From Sphagnum compactum (taxonomy: Eukaryota), in NCBI GenBank assembly GCA_965153455.1, contig OZ234493.1, positions 30,928,213 through 30,992,212 on the forward strand: a DNA stretch of 64,000 nucleotides. The letters run 5' to 3'. The notes under the pieces are model-generated. The model was given only the letters and a program-made list of their open reading frames with translations, was not told the DNA's origin and ran no database searches. The position numbers were made by a program, and so were the translations under genes. The number at the start of each line of letters is the position of its first letter. The first letter of the stretch is position 1. This document shows positions 14,808 through 57,803 of the stretch, one piece after another.

Positions 14808-16103
14808 ATGAAGCTGTTGCAGCAAGGATTGATGCAGATGAGTACTCATTTGCAAGCCACTGGGCAACTCACGCGCCTAGTGCAGTCTTCGTTCAAGAAT
14901 GTGTCGCACATCTTCTTCTGCTTCTTCTTCCTGCTCTTTCTACTTCTAGTGCAGCTAGAGTTTGTGCGCCCGGAGCTGATCGTCAGCCGCGACCAGCTGC
15001 AGCTGCACGACGCTACGTCTAGTACTACTACACAACTTGTGAGAGTAGTAGCTAGTGATGGACGTAGATGTAATCTCAGTAATTCTAGCGTGATTGTAGC
15101 AGCTGTACAGCAGCCAGGAGTCGTTTTCTATCGCCGCGGGGACGGATCAGCTCCTGGTGTCGTTGCGGCGGGATCAGACGCGGAATTTTTCGAGAAGGCG
15201 CAGCTGCATAGCAGCTCAAGAGCTGATGAATATGGCACTAGCAGTAGGAATAGAATTCGTGGTGATCGTCGCAGCAACAGCAGCAGCAGCAGAAGAAGAA
15301 GCAGCAGCAGCAGGTCGCGGGGTCTAGTTGCAGAGCGAGAGACGAACGGAGTCGCGGTGCAGTGGCAGAGAATGGATGGGAATTCCCATGCTCCAGCAGC
15401 AGCAACAAGACTTCATGTAGGCGGTCGTAGATCCTTACAAGCAAGCAACACACTCGACCAGTTTCTGCTCCTGAAGAAGCCTGTGCATGTCCGGGGTGCT
15501 GCGTCATGGTGGCTGCTGCTGCACAGCCCAATTGTGGGAGTTTGTGTATGTGTAGCAGCGGTGCTAATGTTGGTCATTGCTTGTGCACACGGGACTGAAA
15601 GCACAGCCACCGAGTTTCTGGAGTCTGTTCCCAGTCTACCTCCACGCTTCTCGTACGCCACACTAGAAAAGGCGACAAGGAACTTCAGCCGGAAGCTGGG
15701 AGATGGTGCATTCGGATCCGTGTACGAGGGTTTTCTTCCCAAAGGCTCACGAGTTGCCGTCAAGATGCTGGAGAAGACGTCGTTGCAAGGGGAGAAGCAG
15801 TTCAGAGCCGAGGTAGCATCGATGGGTGCCATCAGACATCTAAACTTGGTGCGCTTGCATGGCTTCTGCTCCGAAGGCTCTCATCGTCTGCTTGTGTATG
15901 AGTTCATGGCCAATGGGAGTCTCGACAGTTGGTTGTTCAGCAAAAGAAGGGGAGACAATCTGCTGGACTGGAGCCAAAGGTTCAACATCGCTCTTGGCAC
16001 TGCCAGAGCCTTAGCCTATCTTCATGAGGAATGCAGCGACCATATCATTCATTTGGATGTCAAGCCTGAAAACATCCTTCTCGATCACCAATTTTGTCCC
16101 AAG
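14808..16103 (+). CDS. Receptor-like Ser/Thr kinase, exon 1 (SD-2-type kinase domain, non-RD); predicted 866 aa after splicing to 16788..18092
   Basis: Two hydrophobic segments (IFFCFFFLLFLLLVQL; IVGVCVCVAAVLMLVIACA), then PRFSYATLEKATRNFSRKLGDGAFGSVYEG, VAVKML, HLNLVRLHGFC and HIIHLDVKPENILLD. Donor AAG|GTGAGA at 16103/16104. Confidence 0.92.
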
Positions 16104-16139
16104 GTGAGAGAAGAACACTATAGCAATGATCAGTTCATC

Positions 16140-16560
16140 ATAGCTACTTGTTTAGATTGGCTCAATGCAACATAAGGTGGATCACTGTGTCACATCATAA
16201 ATGTCAGCCTACCATCGAGCTTGTTTCAATCGAGTTGATGCAAAATAGGATGAATCATTTTTTTGTGTCACGGGGTAACTATTAATTCATCATTGATCTC
16301 GTTTAAATTGAGTTGATGCAAGATAAGGTGGATCACTTTTTGCATCATGTTGCAATACACAATTTAGTCCATTGTCAAGTTCGTCTAGATTGGATCAATG
16401 TAAAATTGATGTAAAATTGGGTAGATCATTTTTTGCATTGCACAAATCCAACATGGAATTTTGATCAGTTGATTATTGAGTTTGTTTAGATTGGATCGAT
16501 GCCCAAAAAAAAAAAAAAAAAAACAAGAGTAAATCACTTTTTGCATTGCACGAATTCAAG
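16140..16560 (+). repeat. Degenerate tandem repeat within the kinase intron (about 5 copies of TTGTTTAGATTGGATCAATGCAA..TAAGGTGGATCACTTTTTGCAT)
   Basis: Imperfect copies start near 16147, 16220, 16298, 16380 and 16480. Confidence 0.65.
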
Positions 16561-16787
16561 TTTCAACTTGGAGTTTTGAATGAAATGTTATATGTACCGA
16601 AAGTGATTCACTCTAACTTGCAACTAACACTCAATTGCATTGCAGCTAATGAATAAGAAGATCGATGACTTGCAATGGAGAACTAGCTATCTAGCTTTTA
16701 ATGCATGTGAAAAGTCTTGGTCTTTTCTTGAGCTTTGCGGAATGTTCGGCGATCATCACGTGCATAGATGTTGTGGGCTTGCTGCAG

Positions 16788-18092
16788 CTATCGGATTTTG
16801 GACTGGCCAAGTTGATGGAGAGAGAGCAGAGCAGGGTGGTGACGAGCATGCGTGGAACACCAGGGTACTTAGCGCCGGAGTGGTTACTCCCACATGCAGC
16901 GGTGACGGCCAAGACAGATGTTTACAGCTTTGGTATGGTGTTGCTGGAATTGATCAGCGGAAGAGAGAATACCAACTTCTCGCTGGGGAAAGAGCAATGG
17001 TATTTCCCGGCGTGGGCTTTCAAGATGGTGGGTGAAGGTCGACCCATGGAGCTCTTCGACAAACGGCTGCCTGTGGAAGAATTGGAGTATTTCCACAAGG
17101 AGGAAACTTTGCGAGCTGTGCATGCTGCTCTACTTTGCATCCAGGATAACCCCGCATTGCGACCATCCATGAGCCGTGTGGTACACATGCTGCAAGGGCA
17201 TGTGGAACCGGAACCCATGAACAGTAGTAGTAATACTCGATCACAGTCGATAGCTCCAGCTCCGATTCAACCACCCAGACGCTTGCTTTGTGCATTTGCT
17301 TCAAGCAGGAGTGACATGAAAGTAGAAGATCTGCCTTATAGCTACCAACAACCTATCATAGGACTCAGTAATCCGGCCAGAATGCAGATGAAATCCCCCA
17401 GATCGGTCAGAGAAGCTGCAGTTCCTCCTCCAGCTCCTCCTCCTCGACCTCAACTGGCTAATTGGTGGCTACCTGCACCACGTGAGTCCACATTGTCTAT
17501 TGAAGCTGAAATGTTGGAGGAACTCCAAGGAATCACTCTCGAGGGTTCAAGAGAGAGCTTAATGCCTTCATCATCTTCTAGCAATCTTCTAGCACTGCAG
17601 CATCTGCGTCATGATAATCATCAGCAACAGCAGCAACAGCCCAACAACATCAACAACCCAGTTATATCATGTAGCACTTTTCAGCATCTAAGGAATCTAG
17701 TACCTCCAGGAGCTCTGGGGGACCTTTCTTCTTCTTCTTCTTCTTCTTCTGCTGGTGCTGCTGTTGCTGCTGCTGCAGCAGCAGCAAGTCATGGAAGTCA
17801 GAAATGCATTCCTCCCTGGCCAGTGAAGGGGGATGTGATCTTGTTGCGGGGTCCCGGAGGAGGGGATTACCATGGTGTGGTGAGAGATGTGAGATCAGAC
17901 AGAAAGCAAATGCGGCTTGCATTGCTGCACAGAGTGAGCTCTGAATCGAGATGGAGTGTGCGAGAAGAGGAAACTACGTGGCGACATTGGAATGAGTCTA
18001 TCAAAACCCTCGACTTCTGGGTGGTGCTGCGCTGGTCGACTGTTGCAGGACATGGCTATGAGAAAGTACCTGTGGAGTGGACTGTGAAATGA
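16788..18092 (+). CDS. Receptor-like kinase, exon 2 (kinase subdomains VII-XI, low-complexity linker, C-terminal unknown domain)
   Basis: Acceptor TGCAG|CTA at 16787/16788 gives the in-frame join FCPK|LSDFGLAK. Then RGTPGYLAPEW, KTDVYSFGMVLLELISGR and LCIQDNPALRPSMSRVVHML, with an uninterrupted frame to TGA at 18090-18092. Confidence 0.92.
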   Translation, partial: LSDFGLAKLMEREQSRVVTSMRGTPGYLAPEWLLPHAAVTAKTDVYSFGMVLLELISGRENTNFSLGKEQWYFPAWAFKMVGEGRPMELFDKRLPVEELEYFHKEETLRAVHAALLCIQDNPALRPSMSRVVHMLQGHVEPEPMNSSSNTRSQSIAPAPIQPPRRLLCAFASSRSDMKVEDLPYSYQQPIIGLSNPARMQMKSPRSVREAAVPPPAPPPRPQLANWWLPAPRESTLSIEAEMLEELQGITLEGSRESLMPSSSSSNLLALQHLRHDNHQQQQQQPNNINNPVISCSTFQHLRNLVPPGALGDLSSSSSSSSAGAAVAAAAAAASHGSQKCIPPWPVKGDVILLRGPGGGDYHGVVRDVRSDRKQMRLALLHRVSSESRWSVREEETTWRHWNESIKTLDFWVVLRWSTVAGHGYEKVPVEWTVK

Positions 18093-18165
18093 TGATTGGC
18101 TTGCTTGCTTTGCTTTGCTTGCTTGATGTCAGATTGATCCATTTGCAGTGATGTAAACCAAACAA

Positions 18166-18186
18166 AAACCCTAAACCCTAAACCCT
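18166..18186 (+). promoter_or_regulatory. Three tandem plant-telomere-type AAACCCT units (telo-box-like) just 3' of the kinase stop
   Basis: AAACCCTAAACCCTAAACCCT seen directly, with another copy at ~18214-18220. Function not demonstrated. Confidence 0.4.
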
Positions 18187-19011
18187 AGCAAGCTGTGTAT
18201 ATCAGTACAGTTTAAACCCTAAATTTGCTTTTGGTTTTCATTCAGTTAGCATGCCCATGATCTTGTTCCATTTGTGATTCTGATCCATAGTCAATTCAAC
18301 AGTTTTATTGAAGGATATTATTGTGAATTAGGTGCAAGAGCAACAGATCATATCTTTGTGACAAATGATGTCAAGTTTGTGAGATGATCAATCTTGCAAC
18401 CGATTGTAAAGATGATCACTTCCAAACTTAAGCTTACTTCTATGAGATCATGGCTAAAATGCTCATAGGAGAGAGTACACAACAAAAGTGAAGCAGCTTC
18501 TTCTTCAACTGCGCACAAATTGAAGACAACAAAGGACTTGGGAATATCACGGCAGTTTCAGTATGTAGGGAAGTTGTTGCTCTGGTGATTCTTTCTCAGA
18601 CATATAGGGGCAACAACAATTCACCCTTACAGCTGAGATAACCTGCAACAAGCACTGCAAGCATTATTTTGTCTTCCATACCTCTCTCTCTTTAGTGACT
18701 TTTTTCCAGCACAAAACAAATGGTTGTGTTTGATAACCATGTTATCATGTTTTTTCAATTGTTTTTTTATTCATGACATTTGTTCTCTAATCCTTTGAAA
18801 ATAAAATGTTCAAACCTTCAATAGGAGGAGGGCACACCACTTTTTTGTGTAAAAGTTGTAACGTTTACATTCATGACATTTTGTCTCCAAATGTGCAAGC
18901 ATTGTTGCTACATTGAGCATCTCATGATTTCCATAGAACATTTAGTGGCAAGGTCTGGAGCGTCTGGTGTTGCTAGGAATGAGAATTCTAGGATGTATGC
19001 TTGTTTGCAAT

Positions 19012-32215: not shown

Positions 32216-34380
32216 TCACAAATTGGTTGAAGCATTAGCAACATCAAAATTAACTTTAACTCTACTAGCATAAGTAGTAGGAATATTAATTTGACTTTTG
32301 TTTGTTGTATTTTTTCGAGTAGGAAAAGAGAAAAGAATAGCTGAAATGTCAAACCATTGTTCTGGATCTACTAAATTACATTTCCACTTCCCATTCCATC
32401 AATTTTCGTACAAATGTTGTCCATCCAGATTTGATCTTTTCTTCACAAGAACCCACCATTGAACTCTCACCATTTTAAAATATTCATTTTCTTCATCCTT
32501 GATAACATCACCCTCTGCTCTTCCAGAGAGGAACAAGATTAGGATCGTGTAGTCTCACTAACACAAAATCTCCAACATTAAGATCTCTAAATGGCATGTA
32601 TGTAGTTAAAGGTTTCATGTTCTTTGGCCCACAATAAGGAACTCAAATTGGATCTTCTAGATCAACAACGTCCATCATAGTTGACAATGAAGCCTTAACA
32701 TAGTTAGACCTCCAATTGCTTGAAAGCTAGAAGCCCTCCAAAAGAATTATACTTTGAAGCAGTAATAATCTTAACAAATGTAACAAATCATCTTCCTAAT
32801 ACTCCACATACGACTTCATCTTCATTTCATATGTGGAACTTTGCATGATGCCCACCTTCCAGAAATCCACGTACTTGGATAGTCCAAAACTTATAAACTT
32901 TTCTCTCTCCACTGACCTCAATGCATCATTGCCCCAAATTGGGTGGTATAGAATAGGGTTTAGAACTCTAGTAAGTAACTTTTGGTGAACCATTTAGATC
33001 AACTTTCCATAATCTAATTGAAGGCCCATCTATGGGACTCCACGTAAGATCTATGGGGGAAACCTTGTATTGCATCATTGGCCAACTTGCGGAATCAACA
33101 AAAAATTCTAAATAGATGCATATCAGTATGCCCTACCAACAGTTCAGGGCCATCTTTAAAACACCCTAGGACCCAAGAATTGTGGAATCTTCTAAATCAA
33201 TTGAAGAAGAACAGTCTCTCCTATGAGATCATGAAAGCTTTCATCAAATGTAATTGCTTTCCTTTTTCAACTTTTTTGACAAATAGCCAAAGCATCCATC
33301 TATATCCTCATGTGTATGGCCACCTACAAGAAATCCCAGTTTGACCTCATCAAAAACATCCCTCAACGTCAACAATAATAGAAATGCTAACAAATGTTAA
33401 TTTTTATTGTCTTTAACACAATTATCCATTTGGAGCAACAAATTTCTTGGCAAAGGCTTTGGACCAACAATTTGATTTGGGATGCGTAATTCACGTATGC
33501 AACGTAATTTCCCTTGCAACAGACATGCAAAGAATGAGTTTTGTGGGGGGTGTTCAAACAATAATTTCAATTCCAAAATTAGGACCGCCTCCAAAGTTTA
33601 GAATAGCTGTAGTAAAGACCCAATTGTGAAATTGAAATCGTTACTCATTAGAATATTGTGCATATCTCTCATCCCCATGACCTATGGCTATGCGCTATCT
33701 CCCATAAGAGTAATGCGCAATTGTCCAAGGTCAGATATCATTTTGTTGCACACTTGCAACCTTGGAAATGTAGTTTTTGCATGGTCCATCTTGTCATGAA
33801 TAATGCGTAAGAATTCATCCTTTGATTGCACTAACTTTATCCTCCAAGTATGGTATAAGTTTCTACATGATTCTTGGTGTAGGATATGTTTTTTTAGTTT
33901 TGCCTCATACTCTAGAACCTCATTGCTATTCTTTCCCAATTTGCATATCAAGTCCTTTAGGGATTCACAAATAGTGCATTTTGTAAACATAGACCCCCGC
34001 TTTTGCACATCGACATTCAAATGGTGTCTTTTTCTCGACCTGCTCATAACATATTGAGAAATACCTCCAATGTTTAATTTTTTACTTATCTGCCATCCCA
34101 CAAATACAAAAAAAACAAAGAAATAGGCTCTCCACAATAGATGTATACCTTCACATATACATTCAAAAATACATTTCAATTTCTTGAAAAATAATTTTTC
34201 ATGAAAAACACTTAGCGACCTCCAAGCGTTTGTCACCAAATAGGAACAAAAAGTGTTAGTCATTCCATATAATTTATTTGATCATTACGTTCTTTAGACT
34301 CTTCCATGTTTCACGCAAAAAACATTGCACATCTTGTCTACCATTTCCAAATATGAATCCCTCATCCATATCTTGTTAAG
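32216..34380 (-). pseudogene. Decayed DDD-type transposase (Sola-like / DUF7869-type) with C-terminal SH3/Tudor-like domain
   Basis: Motifs in order: FTKCTICESLK...LKKHILHQ, IIHDKMDHAKTTFPRL, LLLQMDNCVKDNKN, KLGFL..GHTHEDI/DGCFGYLSKKL, then DLNVGDFVLVRLHDP..VRVQWWV..WNGKWKC..EQWFDISAIL, ending at TGA (32216-32218). Many frameshifts. Possible further 5' exons up to ~37509. Confidence 0.7.
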
Positions 34381-44130: not shown

Positions 44131-44709
44131 TTGTTAAAACAACTAATGAGCAAGGCTAATTCTTGCTTGTGACAAGTACACTCCCTGTCGCAACCCCACT
44201 TTGAAGGAGTGTGAGCACATCACTCACACTCCCAAAATGGGGACTTGGGAGTCCTCTGGGACTCTCAAAAACTCAGAGTTCGATTGCAGTGGCCAAAAAC
44301 ACCTTGCCTTGAAGTGTTCTTTATACTATTGGAAAGGTCTTGAAGTGTAGATGTTGAAAATGGCCTCGCATGAGCCATTTGGACATCAGCAACATAAGTT
44401 ATGTACGAAAGAAGGGCCGGGAGTCAAACTGGCAGTTTGACTCTCGACCACTAAAAGTCGGGAATCGACCCGACCCCAATGTGTGCAGGTGTAGTACAAC
44501 ACACCAGTGGAAAGCTCTCAAGGAGGGCTACAAGTTTGCTTCAGACCTCATCCCAATCGGAGGTCTGAGCAAGGAGTTATGAACTCCCAAAGTCCGGGAC
44601 AGTTTTGGGACTCCTCCTTGGGAGTCCCGGGAAAAAGTGCCATTTGGATGTAGGTGCCGCGGAGTAACGCAGGGTGAACCCCAGAGAGGGGAGGGAGGCA
44701 ACAGCCCCT

Positions 44710-47700
44710 TCAATCATTAGAGAAATTCAAATAATACAAAGGGGGAAGGAAATGCCACCCGATGGTGGCATTGTCCTTCCCGAGAACGTTCATATGCAAC
44801 CATTCCTTTCTAAAGGCTAACTCAATGCTAGACTGGATATCCGGGTCCTTGGTGGGGCGGTGAGATCTAATAGCCTTCCAAGTGGCCATATCGACCTTGA
44901 CCGTCGCCACCCAGGCCTGAGTGAGGACCTTTTTGAGGGAGTACTGGTCCCCAAAGTGTCTTCGGCACCTTTCGGACCAGAGGTAATAAAGAATGAAACT
45001 ACGAAGGATGTCTAGAGGTTTTCTGGGATAGGTGAAGCCGCCCGTGTGGTACGCGAGGAGCCCAGGGGGGTCTTCCTCTCTGTCCAGGACCGCTTCTCCG
45101 AGGAGCACGAACGGCCATGAGGGGGTGAAGCCGTCGGGTGCTCTCCATTCGTCCCAGATTCTCTTGTAAACTTCCCACGCTCGTTGGGCCATGGGGTACT
45201 CGAGTAAGCAGTGTTGGGGAGATTCCTCGGCACCCGAGTCGCAAACTTTGCATTGGGGGGGGATCCCCATGAGTTGGAGCCAGGTGCCCACCAGGAGTCC
45301 CTGGTTGAGGGTTAGCCAAATGAGCGTGCTCACCTTCCTTGGACGGGCGTTATGCCAGATCCTCGCAATCACTTGGGAGGTCGTGGAATTCTGAAGGTTG
45401 AGATCTTGTATGAAGGCGAGCATGCTTGGAGTGTGCGCTCTTTTCCGGGCATTGTTGTAGCCCCTCTTGGCGGTGTACCCAAAGAACGAGGCGTCCCCGA
45501 GGTGTGGAGAGGTTTGCCAGTGCCACTCCCCTGGGTCCCATGGGAGGTCCTTTATGAACCCAGTTTCGAAGACCCAGTGGGTAGGCGGCTTCTTGCTTGT
45601 GGCCTGCAAATCTTTGGCAACTTTGAGGGCCGCCCCGGGTCTTTCTTGAGAGAGGATTCTAACCGGGCTGAAGTTCGCCATGGAGATGGTGATCATCTGA
45701 TGGGTCGCGGCTTGGATGCGCCCGTTGGGCGCTAACTTCTTGAATTCTATCACGTTGGCTTGGCCCGGGGCGGATTCGAGTACAAAGTAAACCCAGTCGA
45801 GTGGGGTGCCCGAGTTAGGAGTCGGGATGCTGATCCAGTCTCCCGCTTGGGGGTGGCTGATGCACTCGTATGGGCGCCATGGGATGCTAGCCGTGATGAC
45901 ATCCTTGCATCGTTTGTTTGATGCGTGGTAGCTCATCCCTAGTTCGGAGAGGCTTTTCCATTCTTTGTCTACGGGGTTCCATAGATCCTTGATCCATGAG
46001 CATCCGAAGCGCGCGAATGCGCTTCCTTTTCTCAGGCCGCTTACTCCGAGCGGGGTGCCGTTTGAGTCGAGGATCGACGGGTTGCCGAATAGGGGCTGCC
46101 TGAAGGTTTCATCCACGTTGGTTGGATTTGCTTTTGTCAGACCTGGCCTCACATTTACCCAAGCTTCGACTATGTTTTTCCACATTGAGCAACGGATCCT
46201 CTTGAGCTTGGGTGCGGCGAAAAGCCAATTGATGTCGGGGGTATTAGGGCCTTTTCCGTGGACGGGGAGTCTGATCTGATCGGCCTTGTGCCTGACCAGC
46301 TCCTTCCATGGCTCCCCGCCCGGGGTAAGTCTTCTGACCAACAACTTGGCCAGCAAGGCCTCGGATTGAGTCTTTGGGTCTATGACGCCCAAGCCCCCTT
46401 GGGCGGTCGGGAGTACCAACGTGTCCCATTTGACCTTGGCACGCGCGGGAGCGTCCTTGCCACTCCAAATGAAATTCCTGACTACCCCCCTGACCTGGGC
46501 GCACATCCACGGGTTGGGGTTCCAACACGCGGCTAGATACCACATTGAGGCAAGTAGGACCTGGTTTGCTACCAGGATCCTTCCAGCCAAGGAGAGGCAA
46601 TTGTGGCTCCAGTTGATGAGCTTGCTTTTGAGGGCGATCATCATTTTATCGAAGTTTGCTTCGGCGGGTAGGTGAAATCCTACCTGGATACCCAGGTATT
46701 GGGTGCCCTCTCCTTCCGGTACCCATTAAGACCGACCTCCCCGCCCCAACTCCAAGTCTTTTCTTTCTTGCTGGCCCAGATGGCGGCCGATTTGTGCCAA
46801 TTGATTTTGGTTCCGGAGGCTTGGCAGAAGAGCTTGAGGACGCTTTGAGCCTTGCCCATATTGTGAGGGGATCCTCTAAGGTATAAGGCAGTATCATCCG
46901 CGAATATTTGGTCTCTGATGAGGCCTCCCCTGGGCAGGGATAAGCCCTCCACTCCGTACTTGGGGTCGGCCATCATGTATCCAAGAACGTCGGTGGCTAG
47001 AATGAATAAATAGGGCGCTAGGGTGCTAGGGTGCAGCCCTGTTTCACGGAACGAGCCAATTGGAAGTCTGGTCCAATGGCGCCGTTTACTCTGATGGCTG
47101 ATGAGGCCGCTTGGTAGAGTGATCTGACCCAGCGCACCTAGGTGTCATTGAAACTGAGTTTCCCCAACACCTTGAAGAGGAATCCCCATTCGATTCGATC
47201 GAAGGCTTTCTCGAAGTCAAGCAGGAGCAGGACCAGATCCTGATCGCTTTCTTCGGCCCATTCCAAGGCTTCTTGGGCTATGAATGCGTTGTCAAGAATG
47301 GATCTACCTTCCACGAAGCCCGTCTGATTGGGCCTGATTATGTGTGGGAGGGTTGCTTGGACTCTTTCGGCGAGCGTTTTCGCCAGGATTTTGTAGGAGA
47401 TGCCGAGGAGGGTTATCGGTCTCCAGTTGCTGAGTCTTGCGTAGTCTCCAGACTTGGGGATGAGCGTGATCATGCCTTTGTTGATGTGGGCCGAGGTCTC
47501 TCCCGCGTTGAGCATAGCCGTGAAGGCTCTAAGAAGATCCGGCGCAACTTCTTGTGCGCATTCATGGAAGAATTCCATGGGGATGCCGTTGTGTCCGGGC
47601 GCCTTTCTTTTGGGTAGGGCGCGGATGGCGTCGTGGATCTCTGTTAGCGTGAGGTTTCTGGTCAGGTTCGAGTTTGTGTCGCCCGTGACCTTGGTCGGGA

Positions 47701-49079
47701 CGCTGAGCCAACATTGTTCTTGGGCTTCCGCGGTGCCGGGGGCGAGAGCGTCCAAGGTGTAAAGACGGGTGTAGTAGTCAGTGATAAAATGAGTGAGGTC
47801 GCGTTGGCCCGTGATGGTTCCGGATTCAGTTTCTAGCTCTCTCAGGAGGGCCTTCTTTTTCCCTATGCGATGGAAATCGTAAAAGGCTTTGGAACATGTG
47901 TCTCCATACCTGAGCCACTTGGCTGAAAAGAGATGGCGGTTGCACGCCACGGAATCCTGGAAGACTTCCGCGAGCTTTCCCTGAGCGTCGGAGAGGATGT
48001 CTCTCACCTCCATGTTTGACGGGTTTCTTTGAAGCAGGATTTCTGCCAGCTGTATTTTTTTGGCGTGTGTCCTCATGCGCATGCCCTGAGCACGTTTTTT
48101 TCTCTTGCAAGACACGTGTTACTGAGCATGACTCTCCCGATTATCGCCTCGAGCCAGGTCGGCCAATTGTAGTCGTTGATGCGGCGCGACTGATCCCTGT
48201 CCCATGCTTCCAACATCTCTTGCTTACTCTTGTCTTCGCTCAGCAAGGAGGTGTCGAAAAAGCGCGGAGGGTTGCCCGGGGGGGGGGGGGGTGTTGCCCC
48301 CACACCGTGATGATTAGCGGCGAGTGGTCTGAGAGTTTTCTTACGGACGCCGCGGTCTCTATTCTGCCTCCCCTTTCGTCTATGTCTTGTGAGATCATGA
48401 ATTTGTCAATTTGCGACACGGCCGCACGCGCGCTTAATCTCCCATTGTCATAGGTGAATTCCTTTTTTGACATCTTTCGGAAGCTATCAAGCCGCCACGC
48501 GTCGACCAGTCCATAGTGCAAGGTCATGTGATGCCAGGAGGCTGCCTCCCTCCTGTGCGTTTGTCTCTCGCCGGAGGTGCTTCTGCGCTCGGTTTTTTCA
48601 AGGTGGTTGAAGTCGCCTCCCACGATGATGTGGTTCGAAGTGAATTCGGCTTGGATTGTCTTCCGCCAGAGTGGGGCTCTGTCGTTGGAAGAGCGTGGGG
48701 CGTAGATATTGACGATGGTTAGGGACCCGTTGTCGAAGGATTGGAGCGTGATGAATTGCGCGTGTCCTTCCATTAGGATTTCGTGTTCTTTGACGAGTGG
48801 AGCGATCACCTTGTCGACCAGAATTGTTGTGCCAGCACTAGTCCTTTGCGAGCGGCCCATGGGTATTCTTTCGTTCCAGAAGGAGGCACCTCTCCAAAAC
48901 TCGATTCCACGGGCGGAGTTCTGAATTCCTTCCTTCCCGAGGTGGTGTTCTTGGATGAGGAGGATTTAGGGGGGGGCGGAGAGTGAGGCTAGCTAGGCCT
49001 TGATTTCTTTCGACTTGGGCGAGTCGCCCCTTATGCCCCTGACATTGAGGGAGGCCAGAGTTAGCGGTTTCTCAATCAT
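44710..49079 (-). pseudogene. LINE ORF2: APE endonuclease, reverse transcriptase and C-terminal zinc-binding region; disrupted
   Basis: MIEKPLTLASLNVRGIRG start at 49079, NIYAP, GGDFN, LSDHSPL (APE). KAPGHNG, NWRPITLL, LLLDFEKAFDRIEW, QGC.L and IFADDT (RT). CKVC..ESPQHCL (zf-RVT-like). Stops and frameshifts include an 8-bp GCACCCTA duplication in the QGCPL motif (~47011-47040). Confidence 0.93.
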
Positions 49080-51945
49080 AGGTAAGTCGATTCCGGGCGG
49101 CTGGCTCGCCGATCGATCCCGTGGTCTTGTTTATGACGCTTGACGGTTGCTCTTGGTCCCCATCGTTTTCCTCTCGCTCAGCGCGGGTGAGGGTATCGTT
49201 GTCTATCCGAGGGGGAAACAACGTCGTGATGTCTAGCTTGGAGTATCTTTTTTTCCTTGTCGCCTGTGGGGAGGCTTGGATGCTCGCCGAGCGATTCTTA
49301 TTTTCTTGTCGGGTCGTGTTCTTTGCTTCGGTTTTCATCAACAAGTTGTGCGCCGGGGCTGCGAATTCAACCTCATTGTTCATGCCCGGTATGAGATCCA
49401 AAGCTTTCTAATGCAAGTGGCGCTTGTTCTGTATGCTCAGGGCATTTGTTCCGGTATCTATGTGAGCTAGAATGGTGCATTCCATGCCCCCTCTACTCGT
49501 CTCCTCTTGCCAGCTCCATTCTAGTTGGGACCGGTCTTTGAGTGTTAGCCTGTACCTTAGGACCTTCTCTTCTAGTTCCACTTCTAGGCGTTGCATGAGG
49601 TCCGCCCAGGCTGAGCTGTGTGACCATTCGGTTTTTGCTGGGCCCGTGATTCTTATGTTGAGCGGGAGACTCGGCCGGGCTTGATTCTTGGAGTGCACTA
49701 GCGTCTCCTTTCGGGAGTTCTTCTCCCTGACCAGGACTGGCCACACTCTTGCTCTAAAGAGTTCACGGTTTGGTGGAACATGAATGCCAAGGGAGGTGAA
49801 GTAGGAGGGGGGTACCTCGGAGTGCAATTGTCCTCTCTTCCCTCCCAGCGTTGCCTCTTGTTATGGGGTGCGGGGGAAGGGTTGATGAAATTCTTGTCGG
49901 GGCGAGGCGAATTTGGGGACGTGCCTCCTTCGTCCTTGGAAGGTCCATCCTTCCATGGCGTCCTCTTAGAGTTTATTGCGCAGGTCCGCCCCTCGGTTTC
50001 CTTCGCTTGGGCTGGCAAAGGGGTTGGCGTTTGCTTCCGAAGCGGGTGCTTGTGGGCTGGCCGTCCCCAATAGTCCAAAGCTTAGTCTAGCCTTTGGTGT
50101 TGAGTCTCTTTCTAGACGCCGTTCGGCATCTTCTTGAGTTTTGCTGTTGGTGTGGCTTGGGGACTCTGGGGGCTCGGTCATGTCCTGGTCCTTCTGATCG
50201 ACAGGCGTCGAGCTCCATTAGCCGGGATCCAATGCTGAGCTTTCAGTATGTTTTTTGATTTATCCATTCGATTGTATGTGGGCGGGGGGGCGGTTTGTTG
50301 AGGTCTTTGCTTCCAAGTGCACTTTGCCTTTCCCCGCCATTTAAGAGTCCGTTGGAGCTTTCTGGGTCGGGCCCAGCTTACTTTCTCGGGGCGCGCCTTG
50401 AGGTGGCGGGCGTGCGTTTGAGGACCTCCCTAAGTTCATGTTTGGGAGGGAGCTGTGATGAGCTGGCCCTTCCTGAGGTTTGATTTTGTTGGTGTTGCAT
50501 ATCCGGGCGTGATGCCCAAATTTGCAACACTTCCGACACTGGTTCGGAAGTCCTGAGTAGAGAATCCTCTGGCGCATTGTATCCGTGGCTGAAGCACCTT
50601 CCGCCATGGAGGGGATCCTAATGTATCCCGCCAGCTTCGTTGTATCTCTGATTTCGATAGTTACCATGGGGCCAGCTGGTCTCTTCATGTATGAGTCGGC
50701 AGCTTCAATGTCCAACACCTCGCCGAGTTTGCTTACCATGATGGTAAGCGCTCTTGCACTTCGGAACTATTCATGGAGGTCGGGGAACTGAACTTTAATC
50801 GTGTGCGTGAGGAGCGCTTCCGCTCCTTGTGCACTAGCATCAAAGTTTGGCGTGTATCTTGAGAAGGAGAGGTTGAGTCCACTCCATTCAATCGTTGTAA
50901 GCTTCCTGGTTGAGATGGCGCCTTCCTCGTTCTCAAAGAGGATCAGGAAATAGCCTCGCGTGAGGAGTGTGCCTGAGATGAACGTTGCCGGGAGGTGGAG
51001 CTTCAAGCATTCGTGTAGAGCTTTGAAGTTCGCTCTCCGTCCCAGAGTTCGTCCTATTACTATTCGGCGAACTTTTTTGGCTGCGTTGCCTTGCATTTCG
51101 AGCACCACGTCCACTGGGAACTCCGCTTCTAACTCCAAACTGTAATCCACCGGCGATGGACCTTGGGTGTCCTCCCCCGTGGAGGAGGTTGTTCCTGGTC
51201 CGCTTCCTGAGTGCGTGATCAGAGTCGGGTTGGGAGGAGCCGTTGTGGGGGTGATCGATTTTTTCCTTGATTCGCTTCTCTCACTCGGTTCCTTTGCTCT
51301 CGCGGCTGAGATATCTTCTCTCGCAACTTGCCTTGCAGCGGCGGCACCCAAGCTCTCCTGATCCGGTCTTTGCCCAACAATTGCAGAAAAGGATTCTGAA
51401 AAGCGAGGAAGAGAGGGGGATTGCTTTGGGAGTACTTGGGTGAGAGAAAGTCGGCCAATCGCCTTGACCACGCTCGTTGTGGCTCGTGTCGAAATGTTCG
51501 GATGGGCGATCGTCGGAGGTGACCGTTGGGGGTGGCCTTCGTGCGTATCTCAATCGCTTTTTGCCGAGATCGCTTGCGCGCTCTTGTTTGGGAACTGACA
51601 TCTCGTCGGGTCATTGAGAGCGGCCGAGTTTTCCGGCACTCGGATTGCGTTCTTCCCGTCTTTGCTGAACGAGCTTCCCGGGAGGGGAGAGCTTGGCGCC
51701 GAGGGAGCTTTGCGAGATCCTTACGCCGGAAGAGCAAAAGATCCATTGGTGAAAGGTGGATCCTCGTTGCTTGTCGGAGCGGGAAAACGGGCGTCGCCAC
51801 CGCTAGGGTTTGGTTTTTTGAATTTGCCGAAACGTTGCCGTGCGCTGCGCCCGGTTTTCCTAATCCTATCAGCCATGAGGAAAAATTCATTGAGTCTGGA
51901 GATCTAGAGATCATCAGACTCTGAATGAATATTCATCTTTACCAT
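49072..51945 (-). pseudogene. LINE ORF1 (DUF4283-like region, CCHC zinc knuckle, long C-terminal extension); disrupted
   Basis: The frame from ATG 51945 runs through in-frame stops into ORFs 50767..51471 and 50341..50739 (LLTRGYFLILFENEE; YSGLPNQCRKCCKFGHHARIC). It ends ...TYD* overlapping the ORF2 ATG (ATGATTGA). Confidence 0.8.
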
Positions 51946-52397
51946 CTAAAAGCACTTAGAAATTGATCAAGAAAAGGTGCATTGTGCTTAGGAATGAGCA
52001 AGTCTCTCTGATACGCACCAAGGGAGCGGAGAGCCCAACGCGGCGAGCCGCAGAGAATGCGGAGTAACGCAGAGAATACTATATGGGGGAAGGTGGTGGC
52101 TTCCCCCGAGTCCGGGCCGTGGGAGTCATGTGAGTCCAGGGTTGCCCGTGGCTTGTCCTAGCACTGAAAGTGCTTCCGAATGTGAACTAACCAACTTGTT
52201 GGTTAGTTTGATGCAGGTTCGCGTAACTAAGTAAAGCTTGTCCCTCGCCCTAGTCTAATCCCGGAGCTTCAGCATGCCCCTCTACCCCTTTTAGTGCTGG
52301 AAGCTAAGAGCGTGCCCCAAGTTCCAAACAATTCCGTTGTTTGACTTCTTTGGACCCAACTTGGGTCTAACGAGGAACTTGGGAGCGCGTCACTCCC

Positions 52398-56652: not shown

Positions 56653-57803
56653 ATGGAATTAATTCATGTTCGCTCTAATGAACCCAATGTTGAAGATGCA
56701 GCACCAAATGATGCAGAGTGGGGATATTATTGTCCTAGACTGGTGGACCATTCAGAATTGAAGCCCCTTGAGGTATTGACATCCTCTGGCCTTGAAATTG
56801 AAATGCGATTGGCCACAGCTAGTGGCACAAAAGCTTTGCATGATGTGGGCCTTCTTCTGTTTTCTCCATTTATGGAGCTTGGCATTTTGCCAGAAAGTGT
56901 AAAGACTTTTGATTTTGCCAATTATAGGTTCCAGGAAATTACAAGCACTTCTAGTTTTGCCGATGAAGCTCTACATTTGGAGCCTGTTTTGCAAAAGATT
57001 CCAAGGATTTCAAGTTGAGTGAATGTCAGTTGCCAAGATGATGTAACGACTTTAGGTTTTCCCAAGGGTGATGTGCATGAAATGACAATGACTTCTAGTT
57101 TTCCTGCACATACTACGTAGGAAAAATGTTCTTTGTTGGAGGTGAGTGACTATCATTTGATTTTTGACTTGAATGGTGTTTTCATTGCTATGGGTGAGGG
57201 TCAAACTAGAACTCGCCTAATGGTTTTGAGGCCTAGTATTAAGTAATTGTGTTTACTTGTGTAAAAAAATTTATGGTGTACATATGGTCTTCAGCAATGA
57301 ACAGAAACTTTTTGGGGCAATTGGATATTATCATCGAGAAAACTAGCATTCACCTTTCATCTTGTAGGATAATCCAGTCATTCTACTTTAGAAATGATCA
57401 CTTCTTGCTTAAGAAGCTAAACAAGCCAATTTCCCATAAAAACCTTATCAATTTCTTTGTTCAATTTATTGGTATGTCATTTGAGAATACTTTGTTGATA
57501 GACAATACACCTCACAAGAATTTGTTTAATCCTCCTTTTAGTGCCATTTTTTTAAAAACATTTTATGGGTCGCATAGTCACTCTAATTACCTACTCCAAA
57601 CCATTCTTCTTCATTTGGAATCTTTGCATTCATTCGGAATGCATGTTTATAAATTTGTAGAGTTGAATCCTTTTAGTAGCATTATAGATGATGTGCTTCC
57701 TGATGACCCTCGATATGCAAAATTGATTGCTCTGTGTTCTGTAGAATGTGATGAAATGTTTTATAACAGAATGAAATCAAGATCTCTAAATAAAAAGAAA
57801 TGA
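56653..57803 (+). pseudogene. Decayed gene ending in an FCP1/NIF-like HAD phosphatase-fold domain (copy 1)
   Basis: The frame of ORF 56653..57018 continues through stops into YHLIFDLNGVF...VLRPS, then after a frameshift into CVKKFMVYIWSSAMNRN and ENTLLIDNTPHKNLFNP. Confidence 0.7.

What the first reader, a model, noticed from the sequence alone, without database searches (positions are those of the whole stretch)
17805..18092. Receptor kinase carries an integrated C-terminal SH3/Tudor-like domain resembling a transposase tail
Seen: after a ~210-aa low-complexity linker (poly-P, Q, S, A) the ORF ends in a compact ~90-aa domain, WPVKGDVILLRGPGGGDYHGVVRDVRSDRKQMRLALLHRVSSESRWSVREEETTWRHWNESIKTLDFW. 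Its pattern parallels the tail of the transposase in this window (VGDFVLVR...DVIKD...KMVRV...KWKCNLVDPEQW). Knowledge: SD-2-type kinases normally end shortly after subdomain XI, and non-RD kinases are enriched among immune receptors. Inference: this is an integrated decoy or reader domain, possibly TE-derived.
Basis: partly seen in the sequence, partly recalled or inferred. Interest (0 to 1): 0.7.

Follow-up and report, generated by a model that had tools for sequence, protein, structure and literature searches.

The report
Transposon-derived domain on moss receptor kinase
A conserved group of moss and clubmoss receptor kinases ends in a small folded domain that is otherwise found at the end of CACTA transposases, so an early land plant probably recruited a piece of a jumping gene into a signalling receptor and has kept it ever since.

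Summary
The ~95-aa tail (17805-18089) ends a spliced, transcribed non-RD receptor kinase. It folds as a 7-strand SH3/Tudor-like barrel (pLDDT 88) and has no Pfam match. It is under purifying selection in four paralogues (dN/dS 0.05-0.14), and it is kept in Sphagnum, Physcomitrium, Ceratodon, Selaginella and Diphasiastrum, whose tailed kinases form one group. It is not detectably related to the window's own element tail at 32216-32600 (HMM-HMM probability 0.7%, reversed control 0.8%; a DUF7869 family). It is homologous to the C-terminal domain of CACTA-type transposases (99.3%, E 2.5e-20), where it follows a BAH domain. This genome holds an 18.1-kb copy of such an element, with CACAA inverted ends, a 3-bp target duplication and the same domain. 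Best reading: one capture from a CACTA transposase before mosses and vascular plants split, now a conserved docking module rather than a fast-evolving decoy. Direction of transfer, ligand and function are inferred. My literature searches found no description.

The parts
14808..16103 (+). Exon 1, coding: hydrophobic N-terminal segment, low-complexity ectodomain with no Pfam match above cut-off, RRSL motif, transmembrane segment, kinase N-lobe to subdomain VIb (non-RD). Start codon uncertain (14808 or 15372).
   Evidence: RNA contigs cover it with no listed joint, with in-frame indels at 15219 and 15393; an annotated S. balticum orthologue starts at the later Met
15426..15437 (+). RR(S/L)L motif, 59-75 residues before the juxtamembrane segment in all moss members checked; possible subtilase site (inference)
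   Evidence: 10 of 10 moss proteins; 1 of 2 Diphasiastrum proteins has RRLL further out
16104..16787 (+). Intron, 684 bp, GT..AG
   Evidence: spliced joint in 3 of 4 runs laid; intron depth 0-3.7
16788..17201 (+). Exon 2: kinase C-lobe (DFG, APE, subdomain XI)
   Evidence: Pfam Pkinase; dN/dS 0.02-0.04 among paralogues
17202..17807 (+). Exon 2: 202-codon low-complexity linker (115-143 codons in the paralogues)
   Evidence: 30-38% identity between distant paralogues; dN/dS 0.31-0.51 where measurable
17805..18092 (+). Exon 2: C-terminal SH3/Tudor-like 7-strand domain plus stop codon; homologous to the C-terminal domain of CACTA-type transposases
18093..18800 (+). Transcribed 3' UTR (end not determined)
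   Evidence: RNA contigs run to 18730-18800; the listed indels here are all 1 bp
32216..34281 (-).
   Evidence: 98 genome matches; copies elsewhere score as PF25273, E 1e-26; no homology to the kinase tail

Best explanation
SHOWN: one clade of non-RD, SD-2-related receptor kinases of mosses and lycophytes carries, in frame and in the same exon as the kinase C-lobe, a ~95-aa SH3/Tudor-like domain under purifying selection. The only other carriers found are CACTA-type transposases, where the domain is the last module, directly after a BAH domain. INFERRED (about 0.75): the domain was captured once from such a transposase, before mosses and vascular plants split, when the kinase's last exon came to read in frame into the end of the transposase gene. 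INFERRED (about 0.6 given capture): in the transposase, BAH plus this barrel most likely tether the enzyme to chromatin or DNA. In the kinase the barrel was re-used as a docking module on a flexible linker, which binds a conserved host partner (substrate, adaptor or co-receptor) and brings it to the kinase. Positions fixed only in kinase tails (Trp82, Gly89, largely Arg54) would mark the new surface. Moss members lost the lectin ectodomain and have a conserved RR(S/L)L site, so shedding may precede signalling.
For: Homology: kinase-tail vs transposase-tail profiles 99.29%, E 2.5e-20, 95 columns; reversed control 0.24%. Less circular tests: transposase P0074 as the query hits this tail in the genome at E 2.5e-6; tails of 4 genomic CACTA copies, found through the transposase, score 94.95%, E 4.1e-8, reversed control 0.10%. 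Element identity: 18,142 bp, ends 22 of 27 identical starting CACAA, 3-bp GCT duplication; end motif at 8 places, control 0. BAH then barrel in the transposase model: Z 8.8 to DNMT1 BAH1 (rmsd 2.9, 110 aligned), second domain Z up to 7.0. Single gain: 12 tailed kinases fall on one side of a branch, 93/93, against 4 tail-less ones; 14 kinase tails form one group, 89/87, with shorter branches than the two transposase groups. Selection: tail dN/dS 0.054-0.138 in 5 of 6 pairs, one saturated. 21 positions are invariant in 14 kinase tails; W82 and G89 occur in 0 of 11 transposase tails. Transcription.
Against: The domain tree is unrooted and short (104 columns). Slow evolution of the kinase tails would also make them look central, so the direction is not shown. 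Named transposase carriers come only from Adiantum and from this genome, none from outside land plants. Transposase_21 scores 19.1 bits, below the 28.6 cut-off. No listed RNA contig bridges the repeat at 17720-17792, and the runs are from related mosses. The kinase tree holds only 4 outgroup rows and 93 is below the starred level. No ligand or partner evidence exists.
Confidence: 0.55

Rival explanations
1. Reverse or third-party origin: CACTA elements picked the domain up from the kinase gene, or both got it from a host chromatin gene now lost or unsampled.
For: CACTA elements are known to capture gene fragments (own knowledge). The root is undetermined. Transposase carriers are only known here from land plants or unnamed records. 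Chromatin-domain fusions with transposons, and co-option in both directions, are described in bioRxiv 10.1101/2021.11.30.470311 (passages).
Against: The domain is in frame at the same position in two very divergent transposase lineages (fern-type and Sphagnum-type) and sits next to BAH. Only one kinase clade has it. An unfiltered search of 1.84 billion representatives gave 11 hits, all kinases of this clade, a fragment of one, or transposase pieces.
Confidence: 0.2
2. Integrated decoy: the domain baits pathogen effectors that target chromatin readers, and binding activates the non-RD kinase, as proposed for cereal kinase fusion proteins.
For: Non-RD kinase. Fold likeness to Tudor and BAH readers. 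The model is set out in PMC10260397 (passages). The tail evolves somewhat faster than the kinase (dN 0.09-0.20 vs 0.01-0.08).
Against: dN/dS 0.05-0.14; 4 dispersed paralogues on 4 contigs rather than a cluster; kept from moss to lycophyte; kinase 87-97% identical among paralogues. The kinase fusions in PMC10260397 are described as apparently unique to the Triticeae.
Confidence: 0.1
3. Nuclear reader: after ectodomain cleavage at RR(S/L)L and release from the membrane, the kinase plus tail enters the nucleus, and the tail still does its transposase job of binding chromatin, aiming the kinase at chromatin substrates.
For: Motif in 10 of 10 moss proteins within otherwise divergent ectodomains. 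RKxL/RRxL processing of pectin methylesterases, and released cytosolic forms of Xa21, BAK1, TMK1 and FERONIA, are cited in PMC11494411 (passages). Closest folds are Tudor and BAH readers. Kinase tails are net basic, +2 to +5.
Against: No cleavage or localisation data. The BAH partner domain was not captured. Fold scores are at barrel level (Z under 8). The motif is missing in 1 of 2 Diphasiastrum proteins.
Confidence: 0.12
4. One reading: the tail derives from the DUF7869 element in this window, or is a chance read-through without function.
For: Shared first-strand pattern; the element lies 14 kb away.
Against: Profile-profile 0.74% vs reversed control 0.81%; that family's HMM scores at most 0.2 bits on 37 kinase tails. 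The tail is older than this genus and under purifying selection.
Confidence: 0.03

Closest known systems
SD-2 S-domain receptor-like kinases (G-type lectin RLKs, SD2-5-like)
   Same: Non-RD kinase; NCBI names the Selaginella relative SD2-5-like; Diphasiastrum relatives carry B_lectin. PMC3616866 (passages) puts SD-2 in all five genomes it sampled and at more than 450 million years.
   Different: Moss members have no lectin match in the ectodomain, and all members add a linker and the C-terminal barrel. 'C-terminal' occurs 0 times in that paper's main text.
CACTA (CMC-EnSpm) Tnp2/TnpD transposases
   Same: The tail is homologous to their last domain in fern-type and Sphagnum lineages; the carrier element has inverted ends and a 3-bp duplication.
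   Different: Only the last ~95 residues are in the kinase: no catalytic core and no BAH. The element ends read mostly CACAA; 1 of 8 reads CACTA. The domain itself has no Pfam family.
Cereal kinase fusion proteins and NLR integrated domains (Sr43, Lr9, Pm4, Yr36)
   Same: Kinase fused to an unrelated small domain (PMC10260397 passages).
   Different: Those are described as apparently Triticeae-specific and mostly race-specific resistance genes. This fusion is membrane-type, shared by mosses and lycophytes, under purifying selection and homologous to a transposase.
Transposase capture in host genes (SETMAR; vertebrate transposase-capture factors)
   Same: Host gene fused to a transposase part (bioRxiv 10.1101/2021.11.30.470311 passages).
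   Different: The cases seen there are nuclear proteins, often with transposase DNA-binding parts. Here a putative targeting domain sits on the cytoplasmic end of a receptor kinase.
Tudor / BAH / UBE2O SH3-like / MazF barrels
   Same: Fold: PHF1 Tudor TM(target) up to 0.80, best Foldseek E 0.053; VIA Z 6.9 UBE2O (rmsd 2.9, 69 aligned), 6.8 DNMT1 BAH1, 6.5 MazF, 6.3 PHF19.
   Different: No sequence match in Pfam or PDB; the scores are tied, so no family can be assigned; two extra C-terminal strands beyond the Tudor-aligned part.

Membership tests
SD-2 S-domain RLK | B-lectin / S-domain ectodomain | tested here: not met
   No B_lectin in the window protein or in the moss relatives scanned; present in the Diphasiastrum relative P0008, E 1.4e-16.
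SD-2 S-domain RLK | Kinase domain groups with SD-2 kinases | tested here: inconclusive
   Groups with lycophyte kinases named SD2-5-like or bearing B_lectin; no reference subfamily set was available.
non-RD kinase | No Arg before the catalytic Asp | tested here: met
   Leu precedes the Asp in the window; invariant in 16 aligned members.
CACTA element (donor) | Terminal inverted repeats starting CACTA/CACTG | tested here: inconclusive
   Imperfect TIRs, 22 of 27 identical, starting CACAA in the full copy; 1 of 8 end matches starts CACTA.
CACTA element (donor) | 3-bp target site duplication | tested here: met
   GCT on both sides of G000:C1:15124807-15142948; one copy only. The C3 copy is rearranged and gave no matching flanks.
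CACTA element (donor) | Tnp2 (Transposase_21) domain | tested here: inconclusive
   Matched in 3 of 7 proteins, best E 8.2e-4, 19.1 bits, below the 28.6 cut-off.
CACTA element (donor) | Dispersed, decayed multi-copy repeat | tested here: met
   56 matches on many contigs, most long ones with stops; copies within a subfamily about 86-95% identical.
Tudor domain | SH3-like barrel fold | tested here: inconclusive
   Barrel confirmed, but Tudor is tied with BAH, UBE2O and MazF; no E <= 0.001, no Z >= 8.
Tudor domain | Aromatic cage binding methyl-Lys/Arg | not testable with these tools
   Model coordinates and residue-level alignments were not returned; binding needs an assay.
Canonical SH3 domain | SH3 sequence signature (Pfam SH3 families) | tested here: not met
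   No SH3 family at E <= 10 in 13 aligned members.
Integrated decoy / kinase fusion resistance protein | Lineage-restricted, diversifying integrated domain (criterion from own knowledge) | tested here: not met
   dN/dS 0.05-0.14; moss-to-lycophyte conservation. Site-level selection was not tested.
Integrated decoy / kinase fusion resistance protein | Binds a pathogen effector and confers resistance | not testable with these tools
   Needs experiments.
   0.74% vs reversed control 0.81%.

The most novel reading that the evidence does not exclude
[quoted passage not shown] That would be a receptor given a direct route to the genome by transposon domestication.
Probability: 0.12. Interest if true: 0.92.

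Novelty: new variant of a known kind. Interest (0 to 1): 0.65.

Why it matters
It defines an unannotated domain family with two homes, CACTA transposases and one old clade of receptor kinases. If the direction holds, it is a very old transposase-domain capture into membrane signalling rather than into a nuclear regulator, and I found none described for this clade. It also shows a BAH + Tudor-like end on fern and moss CACTA transposases, a candidate for how these elements pick insertion sites. Physcomitrium has the genes, so knockouts, tail deletions and tagging can test it directly.

Tried and rejected
Pfam on the tail: 0 families; the alignment members gave three single weak hits, including BAH at E 0.18. 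ESM Atlas on the tail: no usable hit, recognition below threshold. PDB sequence search with the tail profile: 0. Complex prediction, kinase with tail: no answer, score 0.01, alignment not used, partner fold uncertain; no evidence either way. Search for further vascular-plant members with the Diphasiastrum tail: only itself and one paralogue among 9 candidates. The profile search missed proteins that were in its own alignment, so the lack of liverwort, hornwort, fern or seed-plant kinases is weak evidence. Metagenome scan for the transposase: 1 locus, which ends before the tail. Raw-read run X23 gave only partial, 90-95% matches and no usable coverage. TIR search inside the first ten loci found none, because the element is longer than the stretches. 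Earlier scan findings: nothing. Annotation artefact: rejected, because the ORF is continuous in 4 paralogues and in orthologues.

Full report
1. The gene. The window is from a Sphagnum moss, judged by relatives at 95-98% identity named S. jensenii and S. balticum. The kinase gene has two coding exons, 14808-16103 and 16788-18092, which give 866 residues if the first ATG is used. The start is uncertain: an annotated S. balticum orthologue begins at the Met matching 15372. The protein has a low-complexity ectodomain without a Pfam match above cut-off, a transmembrane segment, a non-RD kinase with intact catalytic motifs (read from the sequence), a 202-codon linker and the tail.

2. It is transcribed. 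In 3 of 4 runs laid (moss and plant metatranscriptome contigs of related mosses) the 684-bp GT..AG intron is spliced. Depth over the tail bins was 31-36, 46-53 and 9-10, against 54, 89 and 12.5 over the kinase part of exon 2 and 0-3.7 over the intron. No joint removes the tail. The five listed indels in the coding region are multiples of three, and the six listed in the 3' UTR are 1 bp; 7 rows were not shown. Against: no listed contig bridges the repeat at 17720-17792 (107 pieces not shown), and the raw-read run gave no usable coverage. Relatives such as P0006 (569 aa on a 3.4-kb contig) run across the splice junction to the tail in one frame, which I read as mRNA (inference).

3. It is conserved and selected. 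The genome has four copies, on four contigs, 71-77% identical to this one, each at the end of the same kind of kinase. Pairwise dN/dS was 0.054-0.138 for the tail (5 of 6 pairs, one saturated), 0.020-0.037 for the kinase (5 of 6) and 0.31-0.51 for the linker (3 of 6); dS is near saturation in most pairs, so these are rough. Kinase-plus-tail proteins are named from Sphagnum, Physcomitrium, Ceratodon, Selaginella and Diphasiastrum, the last with a B-lectin ectodomain. In a kinase-domain tree the 12 tailed kinases I chose fall on one side of a branch (93/93) against the 4 nearest tail-less kinases of this genome, which have no tail match. That fits a single gain before mosses and vascular plants split. 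No liverwort, hornwort, fern or seed-plant member was found, but the word-based searches missed known members, so the range is open.

4. It folds. AlphaFold2 on a 13-row alignment gave pLDDT 87.9, pTM 0.79 and seven strands. Foldseek ranks PHF1-type Tudor domains first, but with best E 0.053. The wide search gives ties: UBE2O Z 6.9 (rmsd 2.9, 69 aligned), DNMT1 BAH1 6.8, MazF 6.5, PHF19 Tudor 6.3, none at 8 or more. So 'SH3/Tudor-like barrel' holds, and a family assignment does not. Pfam and PDB sequence searches find nothing.

5. The proposed donor is wrong. The stretch at 32216-32600 belongs to a repeat with 98 genome matches whose copies carry DUF7869 (E 1e-26). A profile of 19 in-frame copies (of 30 fetched) scores 0.74% against the kinase tails, and its reversed control 0.81%; its HMM gives at most 0.2 bits on 37 kinase tails.

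6. The real relatives are CACTA-type transposases. The unfiltered search of 1.84 billion representatives returned 11 proteins: six kinases or kinase fragments and five non-kinases at E 2e-6 to 4.5e-4. Searching with one of the five gave longer proteins, three named from Adiantum, with a weak Transposase_21 match (3 of 7 scanned, best E 8.2e-4, below cut-off). The profile of 10 such tails aligns to the kinase tails over 95 columns at 99.29%, E 2.5e-20. That set was partly chosen by likeness to the kinase tail, so two less circular tests matter. The transposase P0074 as query finds this window's tail at E 2.5e-6, among 56 genome matches that are mostly decayed copies. Of 10 such loci fetched, 6 show the start of the domain at the expected place (independent E 4e-5 to 0.03); the 4 readable in frame score 94.95%, E 4.1e-8, against the kinase tails, with reversed control 0.10%. 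One of them ends in the same four-residue motif just before its stop. One copy is complete in outline: G000:C1:15124807-15142948, 18,142 bp, ends 22 of 27 identical starting CACAA, flanked by GCT on both sides. The end motif occurs at 8 places, one reading CACTA, against 0 for the control. That inverted ends of this type and a 3-bp duplication define CACTA elements is my own knowledge. A model of the transposase's C-terminal 415 residues shows a BAH domain (138-297; Z 8.8 to DNMT1 BAH1, rmsd 2.9, 110 aligned; Foldseek E about 1e-4 to MET1 and ZMET2) followed by the barrel (312-392; Z up to 7.0 to SAWADEE, PWWP and Tudor domains). The Atlas links that region to BAH clusters, mostly fungal where the phylum is known.

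7. Direction. In the tail tree (25 rows, 104 columns) kinase tails, fern-type transposase tails and this genome's transposase tails form three groups; the kinase group has 89/87 support and shorter branches. The tree is unrooted, so direction is not shown. I favour transposase to kinase (about 0.75) because the domain is in frame in two very divergent transposase lineages, sits beside a chromatin-reader fold there, and occurs in only one kinase clade. Capture by the element, or a third source, remains possible.

8. How it probably works. All of this is inference. Low dN/dS, few dispersed copies and deep conservation fit a fixed host partner better than a changing pathogen effector. The variable-length linker fits a tethered module. 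Of 21 positions invariant in 14 kinase tails, most are shared with transposases, but Trp82 and Gly89 occur in 0 of 11 transposase tails and Arg54 in 2 of 11, which suggests a surface gained after capture. I commit to a docking module that brings a conserved partner or substrate to the kinase (overall 0.55). An RR(S/L)L motif lies 59-75 residues before the juxtamembrane segment in 10 of 10 moss proteins. PMC11494411 (passages) cites RKxL/RRxL processing of pectin methylesterases and released cytosolic forms of four receptor kinases. Together these allow the bolder reading: shedding, release and chromatin targeting by the inherited domain (0.12). The decoy model of PMC10260397 (passages) gets 0.10.

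9. What is known. Papers seen as passages: PMC3616866, PMC11494411, bioRxiv 10.1101/2021.11.30.470311 and PMC10260397. All others were seen as search listings only. No listing describes this fusion or domain, and six accession terms found 0 papers. The library lacks most subscription journals. I did not open supplements; the gene table of PMC3616866 and the transposon-fusion table of the preprint could list these genes. The scan's own notes had nothing.

10. Verdict. Transposon origin is supported with a different donor, and function is inferred. Novelty: a new variant of a known kind (transposase-domain capture, kinase fusion). Interest 0.65.

Noticed in passing
window 15426-15437: RR(S/L)L motif kept 59-75 residues before the juxtamembrane segment in 10 of 10 moss members although the ectodomains diverge; possible subtilase site.
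   Followed up: partly
G000:C1:15124807-15142948 (L051, L060, L066): Full-outline 18.1-kb CACTA-type element with CACAA ends and GCT duplication; decayed transposase ending in the barrel. The other ~12 kb were not annotated.
   Followed up: partly
window 32216-34281 (-): Decayed DUF7869-family element with 98 genome matches; its own C-terminal beta-rich domain has no Pfam match and was not folded.
   Followed up: partly
window about 44700-52000 (-): GC-rich block with broken ORFs that look like a LINE retrotransposon (endonuclease and reverse transcriptase motifs; label recalled, not scanned).
   Followed up: no
window 57243-57803 (+): 186-aa frame with a NIF/FCP1-like phosphatase match, E 3.7e-6, above cut-off.
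   Followed up: no
G000:C20 772500-792300, 1240300-1260100, 1590700-1600600 (L069-L073): Blocks about 99% identical over the 10-20 kb fetched, each holding only ~320 bp of the CACTA end; recent duplication or assembly redundancy.
   Followed up: no
P0060; P0009 and P0049: The annotated S. balticum orthologue has about 100 fewer linker residues but keeps the tail; the Selaginella models start just before the kinase, with no ectodomain.
   Followed up: no
P0077 (Adiantum nelumboides): Annotated protein joins this transposase's C-terminal part to a retrotransposon pol region; probably a nested insertion read as one gene.
   Followed up: no
window about 18165-18190: Three head-to-tail plant telomere-like heptamers in the 3' UTR (label recalled).
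   Followed up: no
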